DNA of 64,000 nt from the NCBI RefSeq assembly GCF_058153355.1, contig NZ_CM177019.1; one strand, written 5' to 3'. Made by a program: the position numbers and the translations under genes. Positions 22,600 through 60,402 of the stretch are shown in pieces. Below the pieces are notes generated by a model that worked only from the letters and a program-made list of their open reading frames with translations, was not told the origin of the DNA and ran no database searches. The first letter of the stretch is position 1, and each line of letters opens with the position of its first letter.

Positions 22600-22770
22600 G
22601 CCGGAAAAGCAGGCACCTGCCGTCTGAACGGTATCGATCCGGAAGCGTATCTGCGCCATATTCTGAGCATACTGCCGGAATGGCCCTCCAACCGTGTTGA
22701 CGAACTCCTGCCATGGAACGTAGTTCTCACCAATAAATAAGCGTCAATACGGTGCTCCGTTGACGCTGAT
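22600..22770 (+). mobile_element. IS66-family transposase 3' remnant and terminal repeat tip
   Basis: Encodes ...GIDPEAYLRHILSILPEWPSNRVDELLPWNVVLTNK*, matching the C-terminus of the intact IS66-family TnpC at 41197-42768; end sequence resembles the IS66 terminal repeat. Confidence 0.7.
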
Positions 22771-24280
22771 ATGACTTTCCGTGTCAAACCGGAATCTCTA
22801 ATTTTGACGATTTTCTTTTTAGGTTTAATTCCCTGAGGGCGACGTAGCAGTAAATCCGACGGTGAATCACGCTGATATTCGCGGGTTGGATACCGCATTA
22901 CAGAGGTCCGTCATATGAGCCTGCCACTTTCTTACGTCGCGAATCAGCTTTGTTCCGCCGTCGCCAAGCGCTAACGTGGGTTACTCTTGTACCGGGCTAC
23001 GTCGCCTTCAGGGAACTGGTTATTCTCATTTTTTATTTGTGACATTGTGGTTGTTGTGCGACAGACATTGCTATTCGGCCCATATCCCAGATAAAACCCG
23101 CCAGCTCACGTGCAACAGCAACAATTGTAATATTGACATTCTTTCCTTTGGCCTGAAGTTTTCGATACCTCTTACAAAGCCTGAGTTGAGCATCCCATGC
23201 TCTGTCAATGACGGGGCGGGGTAAATTTTCCTGCCTTTTTTGTATTGCCGGACTGATGCGTGCCGGATGACGGTAACTCCACGCTGCCTCGACCAATAGC
23301 TTTCTGGCATAGCTGTTTCCGGCTTTGGTAATGCTGCCCTGATGTCTGCTTCCACCCGATGAATATTCTGATGGCGTGATACCAAACCATGACATCAGTT
23401 GTCGTGGATGTTCAAAACGGGTCAGATCACCCAGTTCAGAAATTAATCCAACCGCAGTAATAAACTGAATCCCTCGCATGGCTTGCAGCGCCTCTACTAC
23501 CGGATACAGCCTCCATTCGGTAACGGCCTCCTTCAGGGCGGATTCCAGCCGTTCACATTGTGCCTGCCGGTCTTCTATTGTACGACGGTGTTCGTCAAAA
23601 GCTAATTGTCGCCAGGGACTTTCGAATGAGTATTTGCTGAGCCAGCGTCGGTGTGCAGGGCCCCAATCTGCTCGCCCGACATAATGGACCCCATGAACCA
23701 GAAGAAACGATTTCAGACGTTGCCTTGCATGCCGTAAATCATCGCGGGCAGATGCCCATGCCCGGGCCAAATCCCGGAATGCCTCATCTTCAATGCCGGG
23801 TACGTAGACAGCAGAAAGATCTCCTGCACGCAGTGAACGCACAAGTCTGATGGCATCACGGCGATCGGTTTTAACCCGCTCCCCCGGTTTTTTCGGGATA
23901 AGTGAGGGGGCGCAGACCATGCAGTCAAAACCGGATTTCACCAGCCGACGATAAAGTCCATAACCACAGGGCCCCGCTTCATAAACGATACTGACCTGCG
24001 ATGACTTTGACCTGAGACGTTTACAAAGATTCTGAATATCAGTAGGTGATGTGCCAATTTTACCCATCAGTTCAACAGGTTCTGAATTGATAGCATAAGC
24101 GACAGTAATCGATTCTTTGTGAACATCTAACCCGACGTACAATGTGTTATTGTTGTTCATGCTGGCCTCCGTGGTGGAAATACCGGGGTGTAGCAACAGC
24201 TCACCCATGCGGCTCTGACAACGATGTTAACCCGCGTTAAATATCCCACGTTGGCCAGCATCTGTCTCACGGAAAGTCAT
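22771..24280 (-). mobile_element. IS110-family insertion sequence, copy 1 (about 1,510 bp, 13-bp imperfect terminal inverted repeats ATGACTTTCCGTG)
   Basis: Identical to copy 2 at 54561-56070 in inverted orientation; ends atgactttccgtg (22771) and cacggaaagtcat (24268-24280). Confidence 0.85.
23033..24160 (-). CDS. IS110-family DEDD transposase/recombinase
   Basis: ORF 23033-24208; start set at MNNNNTLYVGLDVHK; N-terminal RuvC-like DEDD region (GLDVHK, YEAGPCGY, DRRDA) and C-terminal IS110 domain (ITKAGNSYARKLL). Confidence 0.88.
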   Translation of the reverse strand: MNNNNTLYVGLDVHKESITVAYAINSEPVELMGKIGTSPTDIQNLCKRLRSKSSQVSIVYEAGPCGYGLYRRLVKSGFDCMVCAPSLIPKKPGERVKTDRRDAIRLVRSLRAGDLSAVYVPGIEDEAFRDLARAWASARDDLRHARQRLKSFLLVHGVHYVGRADWGPAHRRWLSKYSFESPWRQLAFDEHRRTIEDRQAQCERLESALKEAVTEWRLYPVVEALQAMRGIQFITAVGLISELGDLTRFEHPRQLMSWFGITPSEYSSGGSRHQGSITKAGNSYARKLLVEAAWSYRHPARISPAIQKRQENLPRPVIDRAWDAQLRLCKRYRKLQAKGKNVNITIVAVARELAGFIWDMGRIAMSVAQQPQCHK

Positions 24281-24398
24281 ACTGCCTTACCTTTTCTCAG
24301 GCTATTTTTGCTTTTTTTTGCTTTTCCCCGCCACTTTATGGTGATTATCACATCAATATACATCGATAGATATTAACGTAACTGAAGTGAGGTGAAGC

Positions 24399-53113: not shown

Positions 53114-53482
53114 GTGTCAGACACACTCCCCGGGACAACACTTCCCGACGACAATCACGACCGCCCCTGGTGGGGGCTGCCCTGCACCGTGACGCCCTGT
53201 TTCGGGGCACGTCTGGTGCAGGAGGGTAACCGGTTGCATTACCTTGCCGACCGCGCCGGTATCAGAGGCCTGTTCAGCGATGCAGATGCGTACCACCTGG
53301 ACCAGGCCTTTCCGCTGCTGATGAAACAACTGGAACTCATGCTCACCAGCGGTGAACTGAATCCCCGCCATCAGCATACCGTCACGCTGTATGCAAAAGG
53401 GCTGACCTGCAAAGCCGATACCCTCAGCAGTTGTGGTTACGTTTATCTGGCTGTTTATCCGACGCCCGAAATGAAAAATTAA
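53114..53482 (+). CDS. cbeA: Type IV antitoxin CbeA (YeeU)
   Basis: 122-aa ORF matching CbeA/YeeU. Confidence 0.88.
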   Translation: MSDTLPGTTLPDDNHDRPWWGLPCTVTPCFGARLVQEGNRLHYLADRAGIRGLFSDADAYHLDQAFPLLMKQLELMLTSGELNPRHQHTVTLYAKGLTCKADTLSSCGYVYLAVYPTPEMKN

Positions 53483-53570
53483 CTCTCCAGAATAGCCTTC
53501 TGCTACGGCCTGGTGTTTTCACCACGCCACTTTTCCATTTTTATATCTGCATATCAGGAAAATCTTCAGT

Positions 53571-53944
53571 ATGAAAACATTACCTGTATTACCCGGGCAG
53601 GCGGCCAGTTCTCGCCCGTCTCCTGTTGAAATCTGGCAGATACTGCTGTCCCGACTGCTGGACCAGCACTATGGCCTCACACTGAATGACACACCTTTTG
53701 CCGATGAACGTGTGATTGAGCAGCATATTGAGGCAGGCATTTCACTGTGTGATGCGGTGAACTTTCTCGTGGAAAAATACGCGCTGGTGCTACCGACCAG
53801 CCGGGATTCAGCGCCTGTACCCGCTCTCAGTTAATAAACAGCATCGATATCCTCCGGGCTCGCAGGGCGACCGGCCTGATGACCCGCGACAATTACAGAA
53901 CGGTAAATAACATTACCCTGGGTAAGTATCCGGAGGCGAAATGA
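53571..53944 (+). pseudogene. cbtA: Type IV toxin CbtA (YeeV), frameshifted
   Basis: ORF stops at 53834 after 87 aa; N-terminus matches CbtA and the C-terminal third continues in another frame to TGA at 53942-53944. Confidence 0.7.
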
Positions 53945-54135
53945 TGACACTGGAAGCCGACAGCGTTAACGTACAGGCGCTGGATATGGGGCACATTGTC
54001 GTTGACATTGATGGTGTTAATATCACTGAACTGATTAATAAGGCCGCTGAAAACGGTTATTCACTCCGCGTGGTGGATGACCGTGACTCTACCGAAACAC
54101 CGGCAACTTATGCCAGCCCTCACCAGTTGCTGTAA
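53941..54135 (+). CDS. yeeW: CP4-44-type island protein YeeW
   Basis: 64-aa ORF MMTLEADSVNVQALDMGHIVVDIDG; overlaps cbtA stop. Confidence 0.8.
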   Translation: MMTLEADSVNVQALDMGHIVVDIDGVNITELINKAAENGYSLRVVDDRDSTETPATYASPHQLL

Positions 54136-54490
54136 GACAATGCAGTGATGCAGGGTATAGTGCCATTAACCACAGAAACAGCACTGTTGTCCTGTATTAA
54201 GCAGGCAAGAGAAGATGTCCTTACCCTGCGCCATCTGCAGCTTCTGCACCAGAACCGGTGAATCTCACTCAACAGGCTTCATTTCCCCTGACGCCAGCCT
54301 GAATACAGCTGGCGTTTTCATTTATAAACAGAAAGGAAAACCGATAATAATGGAATGGACGCCCCGACCATGAAGCAACGGTAGGATATTACTGATAAAC
54401 CTTCCAGTGGAGGTGCGTTATGGCCGTTTTAACGATTAGCATTGACCTGACAAAAAATGAATTCCAAATCCACGGTCTGGGTAGGAACAG

Positions 54491-54552
54491 AAAAATCTAA
54501 GCTCAGAAAACGGATTAAAGTAAAAATCTAAGCTCAGAAAACGGATTAAAGT
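54491..54552 (+). repeat. Perfect 31-bp tandem duplication (2 copies) abutting the left end of IS110-family copy 2
   Basis: aaaaatctaagctcagaaaacggattaaagt at 54491-54521 and again at 54522-54552. Confidence 0.9.
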
Positions 54553-54560
54553 AAGGCAGT

Positions 54561-56070
54561 ATGACTTTCCGTGAGACAGATGCTGGCCAACGTGGGATAT
54601 TTAACGCGGGTTAACATCGTTGTCAGAGCCGCATGGGTGAGCTGTTGCTACACCCCGGTATTTCCACCACGGAGGCCAGCATGAACAACAATAACACATT
54701 GTACGTCGGGTTAGATGTTCACAAAGAATCGATTACTGTCGCTTATGCTATCAATTCAGAACCTGTTGAACTGATGGGTAAAATTGGCACATCACCTACT
54801 GATATTCAGAATCTTTGTAAACGTCTCAGGTCAAAGTCATCGCAGGTCAGTATCGTTTATGAAGCGGGGCCCTGTGGTTATGGACTTTATCGTCGGCTGG
54901 TGAAATCCGGTTTTGACTGCATGGTCTGCGCCCCCTCACTTATCCCGAAAAAACCGGGGGAGCGGGTTAAAACCGATCGCCGTGATGCCATCAGACTTGT
55001 GCGTTCACTGCGTGCAGGAGATCTTTCTGCTGTCTACGTACCCGGCATTGAAGATGAGGCATTCCGGGATTTGGCCCGGGCATGGGCATCTGCCCGCGAT
55101 GATTTACGGCATGCAAGGCAACGTCTGAAATCGTTTCTTCTGGTTCATGGGGTCCATTATGTCGGGCGAGCAGATTGGGGCCCTGCACACCGACGCTGGC
55201 TCAGCAAATACTCATTCGAAAGTCCCTGGCGACAATTAGCTTTTGACGAACACCGTCGTACAATAGAAGACCGGCAGGCACAATGTGAACGGCTGGAATC
55301 CGCCCTGAAGGAGGCCGTTACCGAATGGAGGCTGTATCCGGTAGTAGAGGCGCTGCAAGCCATGCGAGGGATTCAGTTTATTACTGCGGTTGGATTAATT
55401 TCTGAACTGGGTGATCTGACCCGTTTTGAACATCCACGACAACTGATGTCATGGTTTGGTATCACGCCATCAGAATATTCATCGGGTGGAAGCAGACATC
55501 AGGGCAGCATTACCAAAGCCGGAAACAGCTATGCCAGAAAGCTATTGGTCGAGGCAGCGTGGAGTTACCGTCATCCGGCACGCATCAGTCCGGCAATACA
55601 AAAAAGGCAGGAAAATTTACCCCGCCCCGTCATTGACAGAGCATGGGATGCTCAACTCAGGCTTTGTAAGAGGTATCGAAAACTTCAGGCCAAAGGAAAG
55701 AATGTCAATATTACAATTGTTGCTGTTGCACGTGAGCTGGCGGGTTTTATCTGGGATATGGGCCGAATAGCAATGTCTGTCGCACAACAACCACAATGTC
55801 ACAAATAAAAAATGAGAATAACCAGTTCCCTGAAGGCGACGTAGCCCGGTACAAGAGTAACCCACGTTAGCGCTTGGCGACGGCGGAACAAAGCTGATTC
55901 GCGACGTAAGAAAGTGGCAGGCTCATATGACGGACCTCTGTAATGCGGTATCCAACCCGCGAATATCAGCGTGATTCACCGTCGGATTTACTGCTACGTC
56001 GCCCTCAGGGAATTAAACCTAAAAAGAAAATCGTCAAAATTAGAGATTCCGGTTTGACACGGAAAGTCAT
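54561..56070 (+). mobile_element. IS110-family insertion sequence, copy 2 (inverted relative to copy 1)
   Basis: Ends atgactttccgtg (54561) and cacggaaagtcat (to 56070); internal sequence identical to copy 1 over all inspected ORFs. Confidence 0.85.
54681..55808 (+). CDS. IS110-family DEDD transposase/recombinase
   Basis: Same 375-aa protein as copy 1; GGAGG RBS at 54671. Confidence 0.88.
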   Translation: MNNNNTLYVGLDVHKESITVAYAINSEPVELMGKIGTSPTDIQNLCKRLRSKSSQVSIVYEAGPCGYGLYRRLVKSGFDCMVCAPSLIPKKPGERVKTDRRDAIRLVRSLRAGDLSAVYVPGIEDEAFRDLARAWASARDDLRHARQRLKSFLLVHGVHYVGRADWGPAHRRWLSKYSFESPWRQLAFDEHRRTIEDRQAQCERLESALKEAVTEWRLYPVVEALQAMRGIQFITAVGLISELGDLTRFEHPRQLMSWFGITPSEYSSGGSRHQGSITKAGNSYARKLLVEAAWSYRHPARISPAIQKRQENLPRPVIDRAWDAQLRLCKRYRKLQAKGKNVNITIVAVARELAGFIWDMGRIAMSVAQQPQCHK

Positions 56071-56740
56071 ATCAGCGTTAATGGAGAATCATATTGATGC
56101 TTATTTATTGGTGAGAACTACGTTCCATGGCAGGAGTTCATCAATACGGTTGGAAGGTTATTCCGGCAGTACGCTCAGGATATGGCGCAGATACGCTTCC
56201 GGATCAATGTCGTTCAGAAGGCAAGTGCCGATAAGCCCATACAACAGTGCACTGCGCTCGCCGCCGAAGAACATAAAGTTTTTATTTCCGAGACAGATGG
56301 CACAAAGGGCTTTTTCCGCGGCATTATGTCTGCCTCCGCCTGACCGTCAACACTGTAATAACAGAGTGCGCCCCACTGATTCAGTACACAGCTGAACCAT
56401 TCTCCCAGTCTGGATTTTTGGATAGCGTGGCATTTTTCTCCACCATGCATGCAGTGAGTCCAGTAACAGTTTGCTCTTCTTCTGCCTGACCACAAGATGT
56501 GCTGGACTGGTAAACGATGGGGATACCTGCTTACGCGAGAGCAATAAGTGGCTGGCCACAATTCTCGGTACAAAACTCTGCTGAATAGCAGCGATTTTCC
56601 CAGCGTGGTGCGTCGTTTGCATTTTACTGGTTCTAAGTTAACAATTATCTGTTCACTAATGACTACTCTAAAAACTTGTATCAGGACTATCACTTATTTA
56701 AGTGATATTGGTTGTCTGGAGATTCAGGGGGCCAGTCTAT
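56071..56740 (-). mobile_element. Composite IS remnant: IS66-like tnpC 3' fragment plus IS2-like terminal fragment
   Basis: 56071-56400 encodes an IS66 TnpC C-terminal tail on the minus strand, about 85-90% identical to the remnant at 22600-22770; 56650-56740 is an IS2-type terminal repeat (GGGGGCCAGTCTA). Confidence 0.65.
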
Positions 56741-58012: not shown

Positions 58013-58558
58013 ATGATGATTTTGGTGACGGGGGGCGCACGGAGCGGGAAGAGTCGCCACGCAGAGGCGCTTATTGGGGACTCTTCACAGGTTCTGTATA
58101 TCGCTACCTCGCAAATCCTTGATGATGAGATGGCTGCACGGATAGAACATCATCGGCAAGGCCGCCCGGCGCACTGGCGCACAGTGGAGCGCTGGCAACA
58201 TCTTGATGAATTAATTCATGCAGACATTAACCCGAATGAGGTTGTGTTGCTGGAATGCGTTACCACAATGGTGACTAATCTGTTGTTTGATTATGGCGGC
58301 GATAAAGACCCTGATGAATGGGATTATCAGGCGATGGAACAGGCGATTAATGCTGAGATTCAGTCGTTGATTGCTGCCTGCCAACGTTGCCCCGCAAAGG
58401 TTGTATTAGTGACTAACGAAGTGGGAATGGGGATTGTGCCGGAGAGTCGTCTGGCACGACATTTTCGTGATATTGCCGGGCGGGTAAATCAGCAGTTGGC
58501 CGCTGCGGCAAATGAAGTATGGCTGGTGGTTTCGGGTATTGGAGTAAAAATCAAATGA
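58013..58558 (+). CDS. cobU: Adenosylcobinamide kinase / adenosylcobinamide-phosphate guanylyltransferase
   Basis: 181-aa [21 protein letters not shown] with P-loop. Confidence 0.93.
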
Positions 58559-59322
58559 GTAAATTATTTTGGGCGATGCTCTCATTTATTACGCGTCTGC
58601 CTGTACCGCGTCGCTGGTCCCAGGGACTGGATTTCGAGCATTATTCTCGCGGTATTATTACTTTTCCTTTAATTGGATTATTGCTTGGCGCGATTAGCGG
58701 GCTGGTCTTCATGGTGCTGCAGGCATGGTGTGGCGTACCACTGGCGGCACTGTTTAGCGTACTTGTGCTGGCGCTGATGACCGGGGGATTCCACCTGGAC
58801 GGCCTCGCCGATACCTGTGATGGCGTATTTTCTGCACGTAGCCGCGATCGCATGTTGGAAATCATGCGTGATAGCCGTTTAGGCACCCATGGCGGTCTGG
58901 CATTGATTTTTGTTGTACTGGCAAAGATTCTGGTATTAAGCGAGTTGGCTCTGCGTGGCGAACCGATCCTTGCATCGCTGGCGGCAGCATGTGCGGTCAG
59001 CCGCGGGACTGCCGCATTATTGATGTATCGTCATCGTTATGCGCGGGAAGAAGGGCTTGGCAATGTGTTCATTGGCAAAATTGATGGGCGACAAACCTGC
59101 GTCACACTCGGCTTAGCCGCTATTTTTGCTGCCGTATTATTGCCGGGTATGCATGGTGTGGCTGCTATGGTGGTGACGATGGTGGCGATTTTCATCCTCG
59201 GTCAGCTTCTCAAACGTACGCTGGGCGGGCAAACCGGCGATACGCTGGGAGCTGCTATAGAGCTTGGTGAACTGGTCTTCCTGCTGGCACTGCTATCTGG
59301 CACTGCTATAAAGAGACGTGAC
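58555..59322 (+). CDS. cobS: Cobalamin synthase; no stop codon, reads through in frame into cobT
   Basis: [17 protein letters not shown]...; ORF tool reports one 627-aa ORF 58519-60402; 13-bp direct repeat CTGGCACTGCTAT at 59284-59296 and 59297-59309 sits where the stop is expected. Confidence 0.8.
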
Positions 59323-60402
59323 ATGCAAACACTTGCCGATTTACTGAATACGATCCCTGCTATCGATCCTGCCGCTATGTCGCGTGCACAACGGCATATT
59401 GACGGGTTACTCAAACCTGTTGGTAGCCTGGGAAGGCTGGAGGCGCTTGCCATACAACTGGCGGGAATGCCGGGGTTGAATGGCATACCGCATGTGGGCA
59501 AAAAAGCGGTACTGGTTATGTGTGCCGATCACGGCGTCTGGGAGGAAGGGGTCGCTATTTCCCCAAAAGAAGTGACAGCCATTCAGGCTGAAAATATGAC
59601 CCGCGGAACAACCGGCGTGTGTGTGCTGGCAGCACAAGCGGGCGCTAACGTCCACGTAGTTGATGTTGGTATTGATAGTGCTGAGCCTATCCCCGGGCTT
59701 ATCAACATGCGTGTCGCACGAGGTAGCGGCAATATTGCTTCAGCTCCGGCAATGAGTCGCCGTCAGGCTGAAAAGTTGCTTTTGGACGTCATATGTTATA
59801 CGCGGGAGCTGGCAAAAAACGGTGTCACGCTGTTTGGTGTAGGTGAACTGGGGATGGCAAACACGACACCGGCAGCGGCAATAGTCAGCACAATCACTGG
59901 CCGGGATCCTGAAGAAGTGGTTGGGATTGGCGCAAACCTGCCGACAGATAAACTGGCTAATAAAATTGATGTTGTGCGCCGGGCGATTACGTTGAATCAA
60001 CCAAATCCGCAGGATGGCGTTGATGTCCTGGCAAAAGTGGGTGGATTTGATTTGGTCGGAATGGCTGGCGTGATGTTAGGCGCTGCTTCCTGCGGTTTAC
60101 CCGTGTTGCTGGATGGATTTCTTTCTTATGCTGCCGCGCTCGCAGCCTGCCAGATGTCTCCTGCAATCAAACCGTATCTCATTCCTTCTCACCTGTCGGC
60201 AGAAAAAGGGGCGCGTATTGCGCTGTCGCATTTGGGGCTGGAGCCTTATCTCAATATGGAGATGCGTTTAGGTGAGGGGAGTGGCGCAGCTCTGGCGATG
60301 CCCATCATCGAAGCTGCCTGTGCGATATATAACAACATGGGCGAACTTGCTGCCAGTAATATTGTTCTACCGGGGAATACGACTTCTGATTTGAACAGTT
60401 AA
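59323..60402 (+). CDS. cobT: Nicotinate-nucleotide--dimethylbenzimidazole phosphoribosyltransferase
   Basis: Region beginning [40 protein letters not shown], 359 aa to stop at 60402. Confidence 0.9.

What the first reader, a model, noticed from the sequence alone, without database searches (positions are those of the whole stretch)
55809..56070. Long structured non-coding 3' end of the IS110-family element: candidate bridge (guide) RNA
The element has only about 120 bp before the recombinase start but 262 bp of non-coding sequence after its stop, and carries short subterminal inverted repeats, the layout of IS1111-group members whose non-coding RNA lies in the 3' end. Within this region an 18-nt arm CCCTGAAGGCGACGTAGC (55828-55845) can pair with GCTACGTCGCCCTCAGGG (55994-56011) with one mismatch, enclosing about 145 nt: a long-range helix typical of a structured RNA. 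IS110-family recombinases are known to use an element-encoded bridge RNA to specify target and donor. The same region exists in copy 1 at 22771-23032 on the minus strand.
Basis: partly seen in the sequence, partly recalled or inferred. Interest (0 to 1): 0.55.

Follow-up and report, generated by a model that had tools for sequence, protein, structure and literature searches.

The report
Bridge (guide) RNA gene of ISSso6
The non-coding tail of this mobile element (ISSso6) very probably encodes a folded guide RNA that tells the element's recombinase where to insert (the tip of IS66-type elements) and how to recognise its own ends. This is a known kind of system, and this element was already listed as having one.

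Summary
The element is ISSso6: 1520 bp, 54556-56075 on the + strand, with an identical inverted copy at 22766-24285. That domain is conserved at 72-84% nucleotide identity in 47 distinct relatives. More distant relatives (transposase 46-53% identical) keep the stem with unrelated sequence.

Inside the domain are two internal loops whose single-stranded segments co-vary with DNA.
- Target loop: UUAGCGCU (55867-74) is complementary to core AG plus right target. GUAAG (55906-10) is identical to left target plus core.
- Donor loop: CUGU (55938-41) is complementary to the left end of the element. AUAUCAG (55963-69) is identical to its right end plus core. The next base matches the first target base, like a handshake guide.

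Five independent ISSso6 insertions all lie in GTA-AG|CG(T/C)(T/C)A, 5 bp inside the terminal repeat of IS66-family elements.

Read on the opposite DNA strand, the architecture is the same as the IS621 bridge RNA. Durrant et al. 2024 (Suppl. Table 5) already list ISSso6 as carrying a bridge RNA in its right end. So this is a correct call of a known thing, with no expression data. Interest is low to moderate.

The parts
54556..56075 (+). ISSso6 copy 2, 1520 bp counting one copy of the AG core. Copy 1 is the identical inverted copy at 22766-24285.
   Evidence: RefSeq names the gene 'IS110-like element ISSso6 family transposase'. Ends come from the empty site L001 and five occupied sites. The two copies are 1520/1520 identical.
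54560..54573 (+). Left subterminal inverted repeat TATGACTTTCCGTG. It is preceded by GCAG (54556-59), the first four bases of the right-donor half-site.
   Evidence: I3, 14 nt, 100% complementary
54681..55808 (+). Recombinase gene, 375 aa from the MNNNN start. An upstream in-frame ATG lies at 54633.
   Evidence: NCBIfam NF033542 'IS110 family RNA-guided transposase', 273.9 bits. Distant match to the solved IS621 and ISCro4 transposases, E about 2e-5, C-terminal domain only.
55824..56014 (+). Bridge RNA domain, about 191 nt, bounded by basal stem P1 (55824-45 with 55993-56014).
   Evidence: Block conserved at 72-84% nt identity in relatives. P1 has compensatory changes and is kept with unrelated sequence in L081, L083, L090, L094 and L089. 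There are 142 G-U cells in the helices, summed from the pair types; these would be A-C mismatches on the other strand, so the + strand is the RNA strand.
55855..55924 (+). Target-binding arm: stems P3 (55855-58/55921-24), P4 (55862-65/55914-17) and hairpin P5/P6 (55877-55902), enclosing the target-binding internal loop.
   Evidence: P4 changes GC to AU in ISSso6 and L005. P5 changes AU to GC. P6 has 10 and 17 double changes.
55867..55874 (+). Right-target guide UUAGCGCU. It is complementary to the top strand of core AG plus CG(T/C)TAA.
   Evidence: Alignment columns 58-63 are 74-100% complementary to core2 and RT1-5 across relatives. Cognate pairs score 8.44 of 11, non-cognate 4.64. It is the perfect complement of the L095 flank AGCGCTAA.
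55906..55910 (+). Left-target guide GUAAG. It is identical to the top strand GTA plus core AG, so it pairs with the bottom strand.
   Evidence: Columns 99-101 are 77-94% identical to LT-3..-1, and columns 102-103 are an invariant AG. All five ISSso6 sites have GTAAG.
55929..55983 (+). Donor-binding arm: stem P8 (55929-33/55979-83) and hairpin P7 (55945-60), enclosing the donor-binding internal loop.
   Evidence: P8 is extended or altered compensatorily in L092 (CACGACG/CGUCGUG) and L094 (GCGACG/CGUCGC).
55938..55941 (+). Right-donor guide CUGU. It pairs with GCAG, the first four bases of the element, using one G-U pair. The full guide register is 55937-55942.
   Evidence: On 30 distinct guide/end combinations, position -7 with RD4 pairs in 83% against 42% shuffled, and -6 with RD3 in 67% against 31% (0 of 2000 shuffles each). 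The RD3-5 block scores 2.00 against 1.11 (0 of 5000).
55963..55970 (+). Left-donor guide AUAUCAG, identical to the last 5 nt of the element plus core AG. C55970 follows it and is identical to the first base of the right target (handshake-like).
   Evidence: The guide co-varies with the right end: ATATC, ATCAG, ATAAC, ATGAG, ATAAG and others. The element's own 5-mer follows TTGACN in 67 of 84 loci, against 1.4% for foreign 5-mers. Column 163 equals RT1 in 93% and never equals RD1.
55989..55995 (+). UACUGCU in the junction next to P1, complementary to G-GCAGTA of the left end. Status uncertain.
   Evidence: 7-nt complementarity in ISSso6. It is conserved in relatives whose left end is NCAGTA. 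It is not reproduced in L082, L083, L090, L092, L094 or L089, which have other ends.
56054..56059 (+). TTGACA, a probable -35 box. In the excised circle it lies 17 nt from CAGTAT of the left end, which would form a junction promoter.
   Evidence: Read directly from the sequence. TTGAC is kept in nearly all relatives. Junction promoters are described for this family (PMC11187229, PMC12288879). Function is inferred.
56058..56075 (+). Right subterminal inverted repeat CACGGAAAGTCATA, followed by TC and the core AG at the element end.
56076..56084 (+). Right half of the target, CGTTAATGG. Together with GTAAG at 54551-55 it forms the tip of an IS66-family terminal inverted repeat.
   Evidence: Empty IS66-family ends read GTAAGCGT(T/C)AA(T/C)GGAG.

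Best explanation
Window 55824-56014 (+ strand) encodes the bridge RNA, also called seekRNA, of the IS1111-group element ISSso6.

The RNA folds into a long basal stem that carries two arms.

Target-binding loop. [quoted passage not shown] Together they specify 5'-GTA-AG-CG(C/T)TAA-3'. This is the tip of the terminal inverted repeat of IS66-family elements, and insertion falls 5 bp inside that tip.

Donor-binding loop. Its 5' side, CUGU, pairs with the first bases of the element (GCAG). [quoted passage not shown] One further base (C55970) matches the first target base. In IS621 a base in this position, the handshake guide, pairs only after strand exchange.

Inferred steps, not shown here. The DEDD/serine recombinase binds this RNA. 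The RNA holds the excised circle junction and the target together. Strands are exchanged at the AG core. The RNA is most likely cut from the 3' part of the transposase transcript, which in the circular form would start at a promoter made by joining TTGACA (right end) to CAGTAT (left end).

Shown here: the structure, the guide-to-DNA correspondence and its covariation. Inferred from IS621, ISEc11, ISPa11 and ISKpn4: transcription, protein binding and catalysis.
For: Identity of the element and its ends.

Recombinase family: (NF033542, 273.9 bits). Homologues carry PF01548 and PF02371.

Conservation of the non-coding domain: 72-84% nt identity, while the transposases are only 70-81% aa identical.

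Structure: 98.2% of cells paired against 34-42% for slid controls; 9 pairs changed on both sides; 0 of 500 shuffles as good. Relatives at 46-53% transposase identity keep the basal stem with unrelated sequence.

Target guides: mutual-information map. Cognate pairs score 8.44 of 11, non-cognate 4.64, sd 1.69, over 23 distinct guide combinations. The five ISSso6 sites all match.

Donor guides: the left-donor guide follows at least nine different right-end types; 67 of 84 loci carry their own 5-mer, against 1.4% for foreign 5-mers. Right-donor guide covariation: 0 of 2000 and 0 of 5000 shuffles.

Strand: 142 G-U cells in the helices, summed.

Literature: the ISSso6 bridge RNA is listed as detected in the right end (PMC11208160, Suppl. 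Table 5). In IS1111-type seekRNAs the top-strand match lies 5' of the bottom-strand match, as found here (PMC11187229).
Against: No expression, processing or protein-binding data exist for ISSso6. Rfam 15 gives no match. No sigma-70-like promoter lies just upstream and no intrinsic terminator follows on the + strand, so the RNA ends are unknown.

In ISSso6 itself the right-donor guide makes only 4 pairs, one of them G-U. Across relatives the full six-position right-donor guide score separates cognate from non-cognate only modestly (about 4.0-4.2 against 2.9 of 6). Several guides contain mismatches; for example copy 1's flank CGTCAA mismatches A55869.

The relatives are related by descent, so shuffle controls overstate significance. 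However, guide classes were de-duplicated and many independent guide/target switches are seen.
Confidence: 0.9

Rival explanations
1. It is a target-only seekRNA. Only the target-binding arm (about 55855-55924, 70 nt) would be the functional guide. The element ends would be recognised by the protein through the 14-bp subterminal inverted repeats, and the 3' arm would be scaffold or processing signal.
For: Siddiquee et al. found that a short 70-100 nt RNA holding only the target matches was sufficient for ISEc11 (PMC11187229). In ISSso6 the right-donor guide pairs only 4 bases. Long subterminal repeats are conserved.
Against: The segment after hairpin P7 tracks the last five bases of the element through at least nine different end types. 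The 5' side of the same loop tracks RD3-RD4. The next base tracks the first target base and never the donor's own base. A pure scaffold would not show this.
Confidence: 0.07
2. It is a structured 3' UTR, attenuator or terminator of the transposase mRNA, or a chance palindrome, with no guide function.
For: The region lies directly after the stop codon. Both strands fold about equally well. No family match in Rfam.
Against: No run of T follows the stem. The loops, not only the stems, are specifically matched to flanking DNA and switch together with the target in 23 guide classes. The domain is conserved as strongly as the protein.
Confidence: 0.02
3. It is a small protein-coding gene, for example the 150-aa ORF at 55943-56395.
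For: An ORF is listed there.
Against: The ORF runs across the element end into the IS66 remnant, so it cannot belong to the element. Relatives differ by 1-2-nt indels and by compensatory pair changes rather than codon-wise changes.
Confidence: 0.01

Closest known systems
IS621 bridge RNA (IS110 group; Durrant et al. 2024, Hiraizumi et al. 2024)
   Same: There are two internal loops. Each has a 5' segment and a 3' segment that pair with opposite strands of the two half-sites and overlap at a 2-nt core. The core AG here is CT, as in IS621, when read on the other strand. A handshake-like base follows the core-pairing end of one donor guide. With the DNA read on the opposite strand, guide order and strand usage coincide with IS621: LTG 5', RTG 3', RDG plus handshake guide on the 3' side.
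   Different: The RNA is encoded in the right end, downstream of the gene, not in the left end. So the RNA is transcribed in the opposite sense relative to the polarity of the recombination site. The two arms sit on a 20-bp basal stem in a three-way junction. The element has a long (14-bp) subterminal inverted repeat. No handshake base was detected on the target loop. The recombinase is 375 aa and only distantly similar (E = 2e-5, C-terminal domain only).
seekRNAs of the IS1111-type elements ISEc11, ISPa11, ISKpn4 and ISPst6 (Siddiquee et al. 2024)
   Same: The RNA lies in the downstream non-coding region. The segment that pairs with the top strand lies 5' of the one that pairs with the bottom strand, and the two matches overlap at the insertion point. 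Subterminal repeats are present. A junction promoter is probable. Natural retargeting occurs by guide replacement among relatives.
   Different: The transposase is longer (375 aa against 330-350) and belongs to a separate branch; in the aligned sequences of Durrant's Suppl. Table 5 its N-terminus resembles that of IS1533. Explicit donor guides could be mapped here. No biochemical data exist for ISSso6.
[quoted passage not shown]
   Same: An IS1111-group element whose specific target is a fixed position inside the terminal inverted repeat of another mobile element.
   Different: The target here is the tip of IS66-family insertion sequences (GTAAG|CG...), 5 bp from the end.

Membership tests
IS110-family bridge RNA / seekRNA | Encoded in a non-coding end of an element whose only gene is a DEDD (RuvC-like) plus Tnp-domain recombinase | tested here: met
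   NCBIfam NF033542, 273.9 bits against a cut-off of 140. Homologues carry PF01548 and PF02371. The RNA domain lies between the stop codon and the right end.
IS110-family bridge RNA / seekRNA | Conserved secondary structure supported by covariation | tested here: met
IS110-family bridge RNA / seekRNA | Target-binding loop: two segments pair with opposite strands of the left and right target, overlap at the core and change together with the target | tested here: met
IS110-family bridge RNA / seekRNA | Donor-binding loop: two segments pair with the two element ends around the same core | tested here: met
   The left-donor guide is strongly supported. The right-donor guide is supported at RD3-RD4 but makes only 4 pairs in ISSso6 itself.
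IS110-family bridge RNA / seekRNA | The RNA is made, binds the recombinase and is required for excision and insertion | not testable with these tools
   No expression or biochemical data. Inferred from IS621 and ISEc11 (PMC11208160, PMC11187229).
IS110-family bridge RNA / seekRNA | Match to a curated or published covariance model | tested here: inconclusive
   Rfam 15 gives no match at E <= 10, and I could not check whether Rfam holds such a family at all. The published models of Durrant et al. are not available here, but their Suppl. Table 5 reports a hit in the right end of ISSso6.
IS1111 group of the IS110 family | Subterminal inverted repeats of 7-17 bp; short left end and long right end | tested here: met
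   14-bp repeat. Left end 125 nt, right end 267 nt.
IS1111 group of the IS110 family | Transposase of about 330-350 aa with a GL-P----S(t)G motif (Siddiquee et al. 2024) | tested here: inconclusive
   The protein is 375 aa and has GITPSEYSSG, which fits G--P----SG but has I in place of L. Durrant's table assigns it to IS1111.

The most novel reading that the evidence does not exclude
In the ISSso6 clade the regular right-donor guide is reduced to about 4 pairs. A second segment, UACUGCU (55989-95), is complementary to the same left end. It sits in the three-way junction and overlaps the top of the basal stem. It could be an extra, fifth guide or a switch in which opening the apical pairs of the stem is coupled to donor binding. 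If so, donor recognition in this clade would differ from the IS621 scheme.
Probability: 0.12. Interest if true: 0.45.

Novelty: already known. Interest (0 to 1): 0.27.

Why it matters
It confirms that a sequence-only reader can spot a bridge RNA gene. It also gives, for ISSso6, an explicit guide map and the natural target: position 5 of the IS66-family terminal repeat, 5'-GTAAG|CG(C/T)TAA. I did not find either in the papers searched.

The relatives collected here give a covariation-backed map of all four guides and one handshake position for a right-end (IS1111-type) bridge RNA. They show that its logic equals that of IS621 read on the other strand. This may help anyone engineering IS1111-type systems. 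It does not open a new question.

Tried and rejected
- Rfam 15 scan of 54000-56600 at E <= 10 found only a chance REN-SRE hit.
- The promoter and terminator scan found nothing convincing next to the RNA.
- RNAalifold paired CGG of GACGG with CC.G after the basal stem, and UGAU with ACCG. I replaced these with stem P8 (GACGG/CCGUC), because L092 and L094 extend that stem compensatorily.
- The variable linker AUAU (55925-28) was tested as a guide. It shrinks to 1 nt in distant relatives and matches nothing.
- UACUGCU (55989-95) was first taken as the right-donor guide. It is not reproduced in relatives with other left ends.
- A search for any RNA segment of at least 5 nt complementary to core plus right donor in eight elements gave no consistent location. 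The metagenome set then fixed the register relative to hairpin P7.
- A handshake base after the left-target guide (alignment column 104, compared with RD1) was looked for by eye on the flank and guide table. No consistent match was seen.
- No covariance model of my own was built.

Full report
**What is there**

The window holds two copies of ISSso6. RefSeq annotates the gene as 'IS110-like element ISSso6 family transposase'. Copy 2 lies on the + strand and copy 1 on the - strand. They are 1520/1520 identical.

The ends were fixed by comparison with an empty site. Locus L001 has exactly the left flank of copy 1 and reads ...GAGAAAAG-GTAAG-CGTTAATGGAG... Intact ISEc23 and IS682 ends read the same way. 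Occupied sites read GTA-AG-[GCAGTATGAC...GTCATATC-AG]-CGT... So the element is 54556-56075, the crossover core is AG, and the target is 5 bp inside the tip of the terminal inverted repeat of IS66-family elements.

Five independent ISSso6 insertions all show GTA-AG | AG-CG(T/C)(T/C)A(A/C). They comprise the two in the window and three from other E. coli chromosomes or a plasmid.

**Check of the observation**

The helix is real: 20 nt, 95% complementary, 147 nt between the arms. It is part of an MFE fold more stable than shuffles (z = -4.0). The other strand folds about as well (z = -4.4), so energy does not name the strand.

The non-coding right end is 267 nt (55809-56075) and the left end 125 nt. 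The subterminal inverted repeat is 14 bp.

**Comparative evidence for structure**

A genome scan returned 77 relatives, mostly Burkholderiaceae, with transposases 70-81% identical. Positions 16-206 of the non-coding region, exactly the stem-enclosed domain, are 72-84% identical at the nucleotide level. This is as conserved as the protein. An alignment of 47 distinct sequences (A2) shows invariant blocks interrupted by a few hypervariable blocks.

I tested a structure with six helices:
- P1: 55824-45 with 55993-56014
- P3: 55855-58 with 55921-24
- P4: 55862-65 with 55914-17
- P5/P6: a hairpin at 55877-902
- P8: 55929-33 with 55979-83
- P7: a hairpin at 55945-60

It has 98.2% of cells paired, against 34-42% when partners are slid. 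Nine pairs show changes on both sides, and 0 of 500 shuffles do as well. RNAalifold independently found P1, P3, P4, P5/P6 and P7.

Relatives whose transposase is only 46-53% identical keep a long basal stem of entirely different sequence, for example GAGGGCGGGGCC/GGUCCCGCCCUC in L083. The helices contain 142 G-U cells (summed). These would be A-C mismatches on the other strand, so the + strand is the RNA strand.

**Target-binding loop**

I compared every alignment column with every flanking DNA position.
- Columns 63 to 58 are complementary, in antiparallel order, to the second core base and RT1-RT5 (74-100% complementary, MI 0.5-1.3).
- Columns 99-101 are identical to the three bases left of the core (77-94%) and are followed by an invariant AG.

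Across 23 distinct guide combinations, cognate RNA/flank pairs score 8.44 of 11. Non-cognate pairs score 4.64 (sd 1.69).

In ISSso6 the two segments are UUAGCGCU (55867-74) and GUAAG (55906-10). They lie on the 5' and 3' sides of the internal loop between P4 and P5. UUAGCGCU is the perfect complement of AGCGCTAA, the flank found at L095. With the CGTTAA ends it makes one G-T pair, and with CGTCAA one mismatch in addition. The order, top-strand match 5' of bottom-strand match, is the one reported for IS1111-type seekRNAs (PMC11187229).

**Donor-binding loop**

In the close relatives the element ends are invariant, so more distant ones were needed. Eight elements from the representative search already showed the pattern. 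The 7 nt after hairpin P7 equal the last five bases of the element plus the core: AUAUCAG with ...ATATC-AG, AUCAGAG with ...ATCAG-AG (L083, L090), and AUAACAG with ...ATAAC-AG (L094).

A metagenome scan with the conserved P7 hairpin gave 120 loci and 17 different 5-mers at this place. In 67 of the 84 loci that have a TTGACN box downstream, the locus's own 5-mer follows that box. Foreign 5-mers do so in 1.4% of cases. So AUAUCAG (55963-69) is the left-donor guide.

The base after it (C55970, column 163) equals the first base of the right target in 93% of relatives. It never equals the donor's own first base. The handshake guide of IS621 behaves this way: it pairs only after strand exchange, and pairing with its own DNA is inhibitory (PMC11208158).

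Thirty-four metagenomic elements with both ends fixed the register of the fourth guide. It occupies positions -8 to -3 before P7, on the 5' side of the same loop, and pairs with RD5..RD1 and the second core base. Examples are AUGGUC with GACCAT, ACCGUC with GACGGT and CUUCUC with GAGAAG. On 30 distinct combinations, -7:RD4 is paired in 83% against 42% shuffled, and -6:RD3 in 67% against 31% (0 of 2000 shuffles each). The RD3-5 block scores 2.00 against 1.11 (0 of 5000). In ISSso6 this guide is short: CUGU (55938-41) pairs with GCAG, one pair being G-U.

**How it compares with what is known**

Suppose the DNA is read on the opposite strand. The core becomes CT. The 5' segment of each loop is then identical to 'left half-site plus core', and the 3' segment is complementary to 'core plus right half-site'. 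The handshake base follows the 3' donor guide. This is the IS621 scheme (PMC11208160; PMC11208158).

The real differences are these:
- The RNA lies in the right end and is therefore transcribed in the opposite sense relative to site polarity.
- The two arms sit on a 20-bp basal stem.
- The subterminal repeat is long.
- The recombinase is only remotely similar to IS621 (E = 2e-5, C-terminal domain).

Durrant et al. predicted bridge RNAs in 93% of IS1111 elements. Their Supplementary Table 5 has the row 'ISSso6 / RE / IS1111'. The existence of this RNA has therefore been predicted in print. I found no paper that describes its guides or its target; six papers mention ISSso6, none in this context by title or abstract.

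**What is not shown**

Rfam 15 has no match. No promoter-like site lies just upstream and no terminator follows. By analogy with ISEc11, the RNA would be cut out of the transposase transcript. In the excised circle that transcript could start at TTGACA (56054-59) - N17 - CAGTAT, formed across the junction. This is read from the sequence and its function is inferred. Transcription, processing, protein binding and catalysis are all inferred.

**Unresolved detail**

UACUGCU (55989-95), in the junction next to P1, is complementary to G-GCAGTA of the left end. It is conserved wherever the end is NCAGTA. Relatives with other ends have nothing equivalent. It may be chance, a clade-specific extra contact, or a switch.

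**Verdict**

This is a correct identification of a known kind of element in an already catalogued member. The value added here is the explicit guide map and the target.

Noticed in passing
window 22766-24285 and 54556-56075, with the segment 24286-54555 between them: The flanks of the two identical, inverted ISSso6 copies are exchanged. The empty site L001 equals copy-1 left flank plus copy-2 right flank. The reciprocal junction (copy-2 left plus copy-1 right) is contiguous at 100% identity in the listed best hits and covers at least 80% of the query in 3213 E. coli genomes. The roughly 30-kb segment between the copies has therefore been inverted by recombination between them.
   Followed up: yes
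window 54491-54552: An exact 31-bp tandem duplication (AAAAATCTAAGCTCAGAAAACGGATTAAAGT, two copies) abuts the IS66 tip and ISSso6 left junction. Genomes with the uninterrupted site have a single copy (record span 209 against a query of 240). Its origin is unexplained.
   Followed up: partly
L045 (Paraburkholderia domus contig), about 1450-1671: The last roughly 108 nt of the element are duplicated in tandem. The junction lies at the internal ATATCAG, the DNA that encodes the left-donor guide, which is a perfect copy of the real right end plus core. The guide-coding DNA may act as a pseudo-donor site.
   Followed up: partly
L043/L046 (Paraburkholderia and Caballeronia genomes) and L083-L088 (metagenomes): Elements whose transposases are 74-76% and 48% identical to ISSso6's respectively carry near-identical target guides. 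They sit in the same target, CGGTTTAG|TCC. For L083-L086 this lies next to an IS91-type transposase and integrase module. This is a second case of one target shared by diverged recombinases.
   Followed up: partly
L001 565-787 (E. coli BEC1-S17-ESBL-09): Another IS110-like transposase gene (ISEc45 family) begins about 70 bp beyond the annotated IS66-type transposase fragment (385-492) whose tip ISSso6 uses in other strains. I did not check whether it is inserted within that remnant.
   Followed up: no
window 53114-53834: ORFs that I recognise from memory as resembling the YeeU/YeeV (CbeA/CbtA) antitoxin and toxin of CP4-44-type cryptic prophages lie just upstream of copy 2. CobU- and CobS/CobT-like ORFs lie downstream, at 58013-60402. 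These were not tested with any tool.
   Followed up: no
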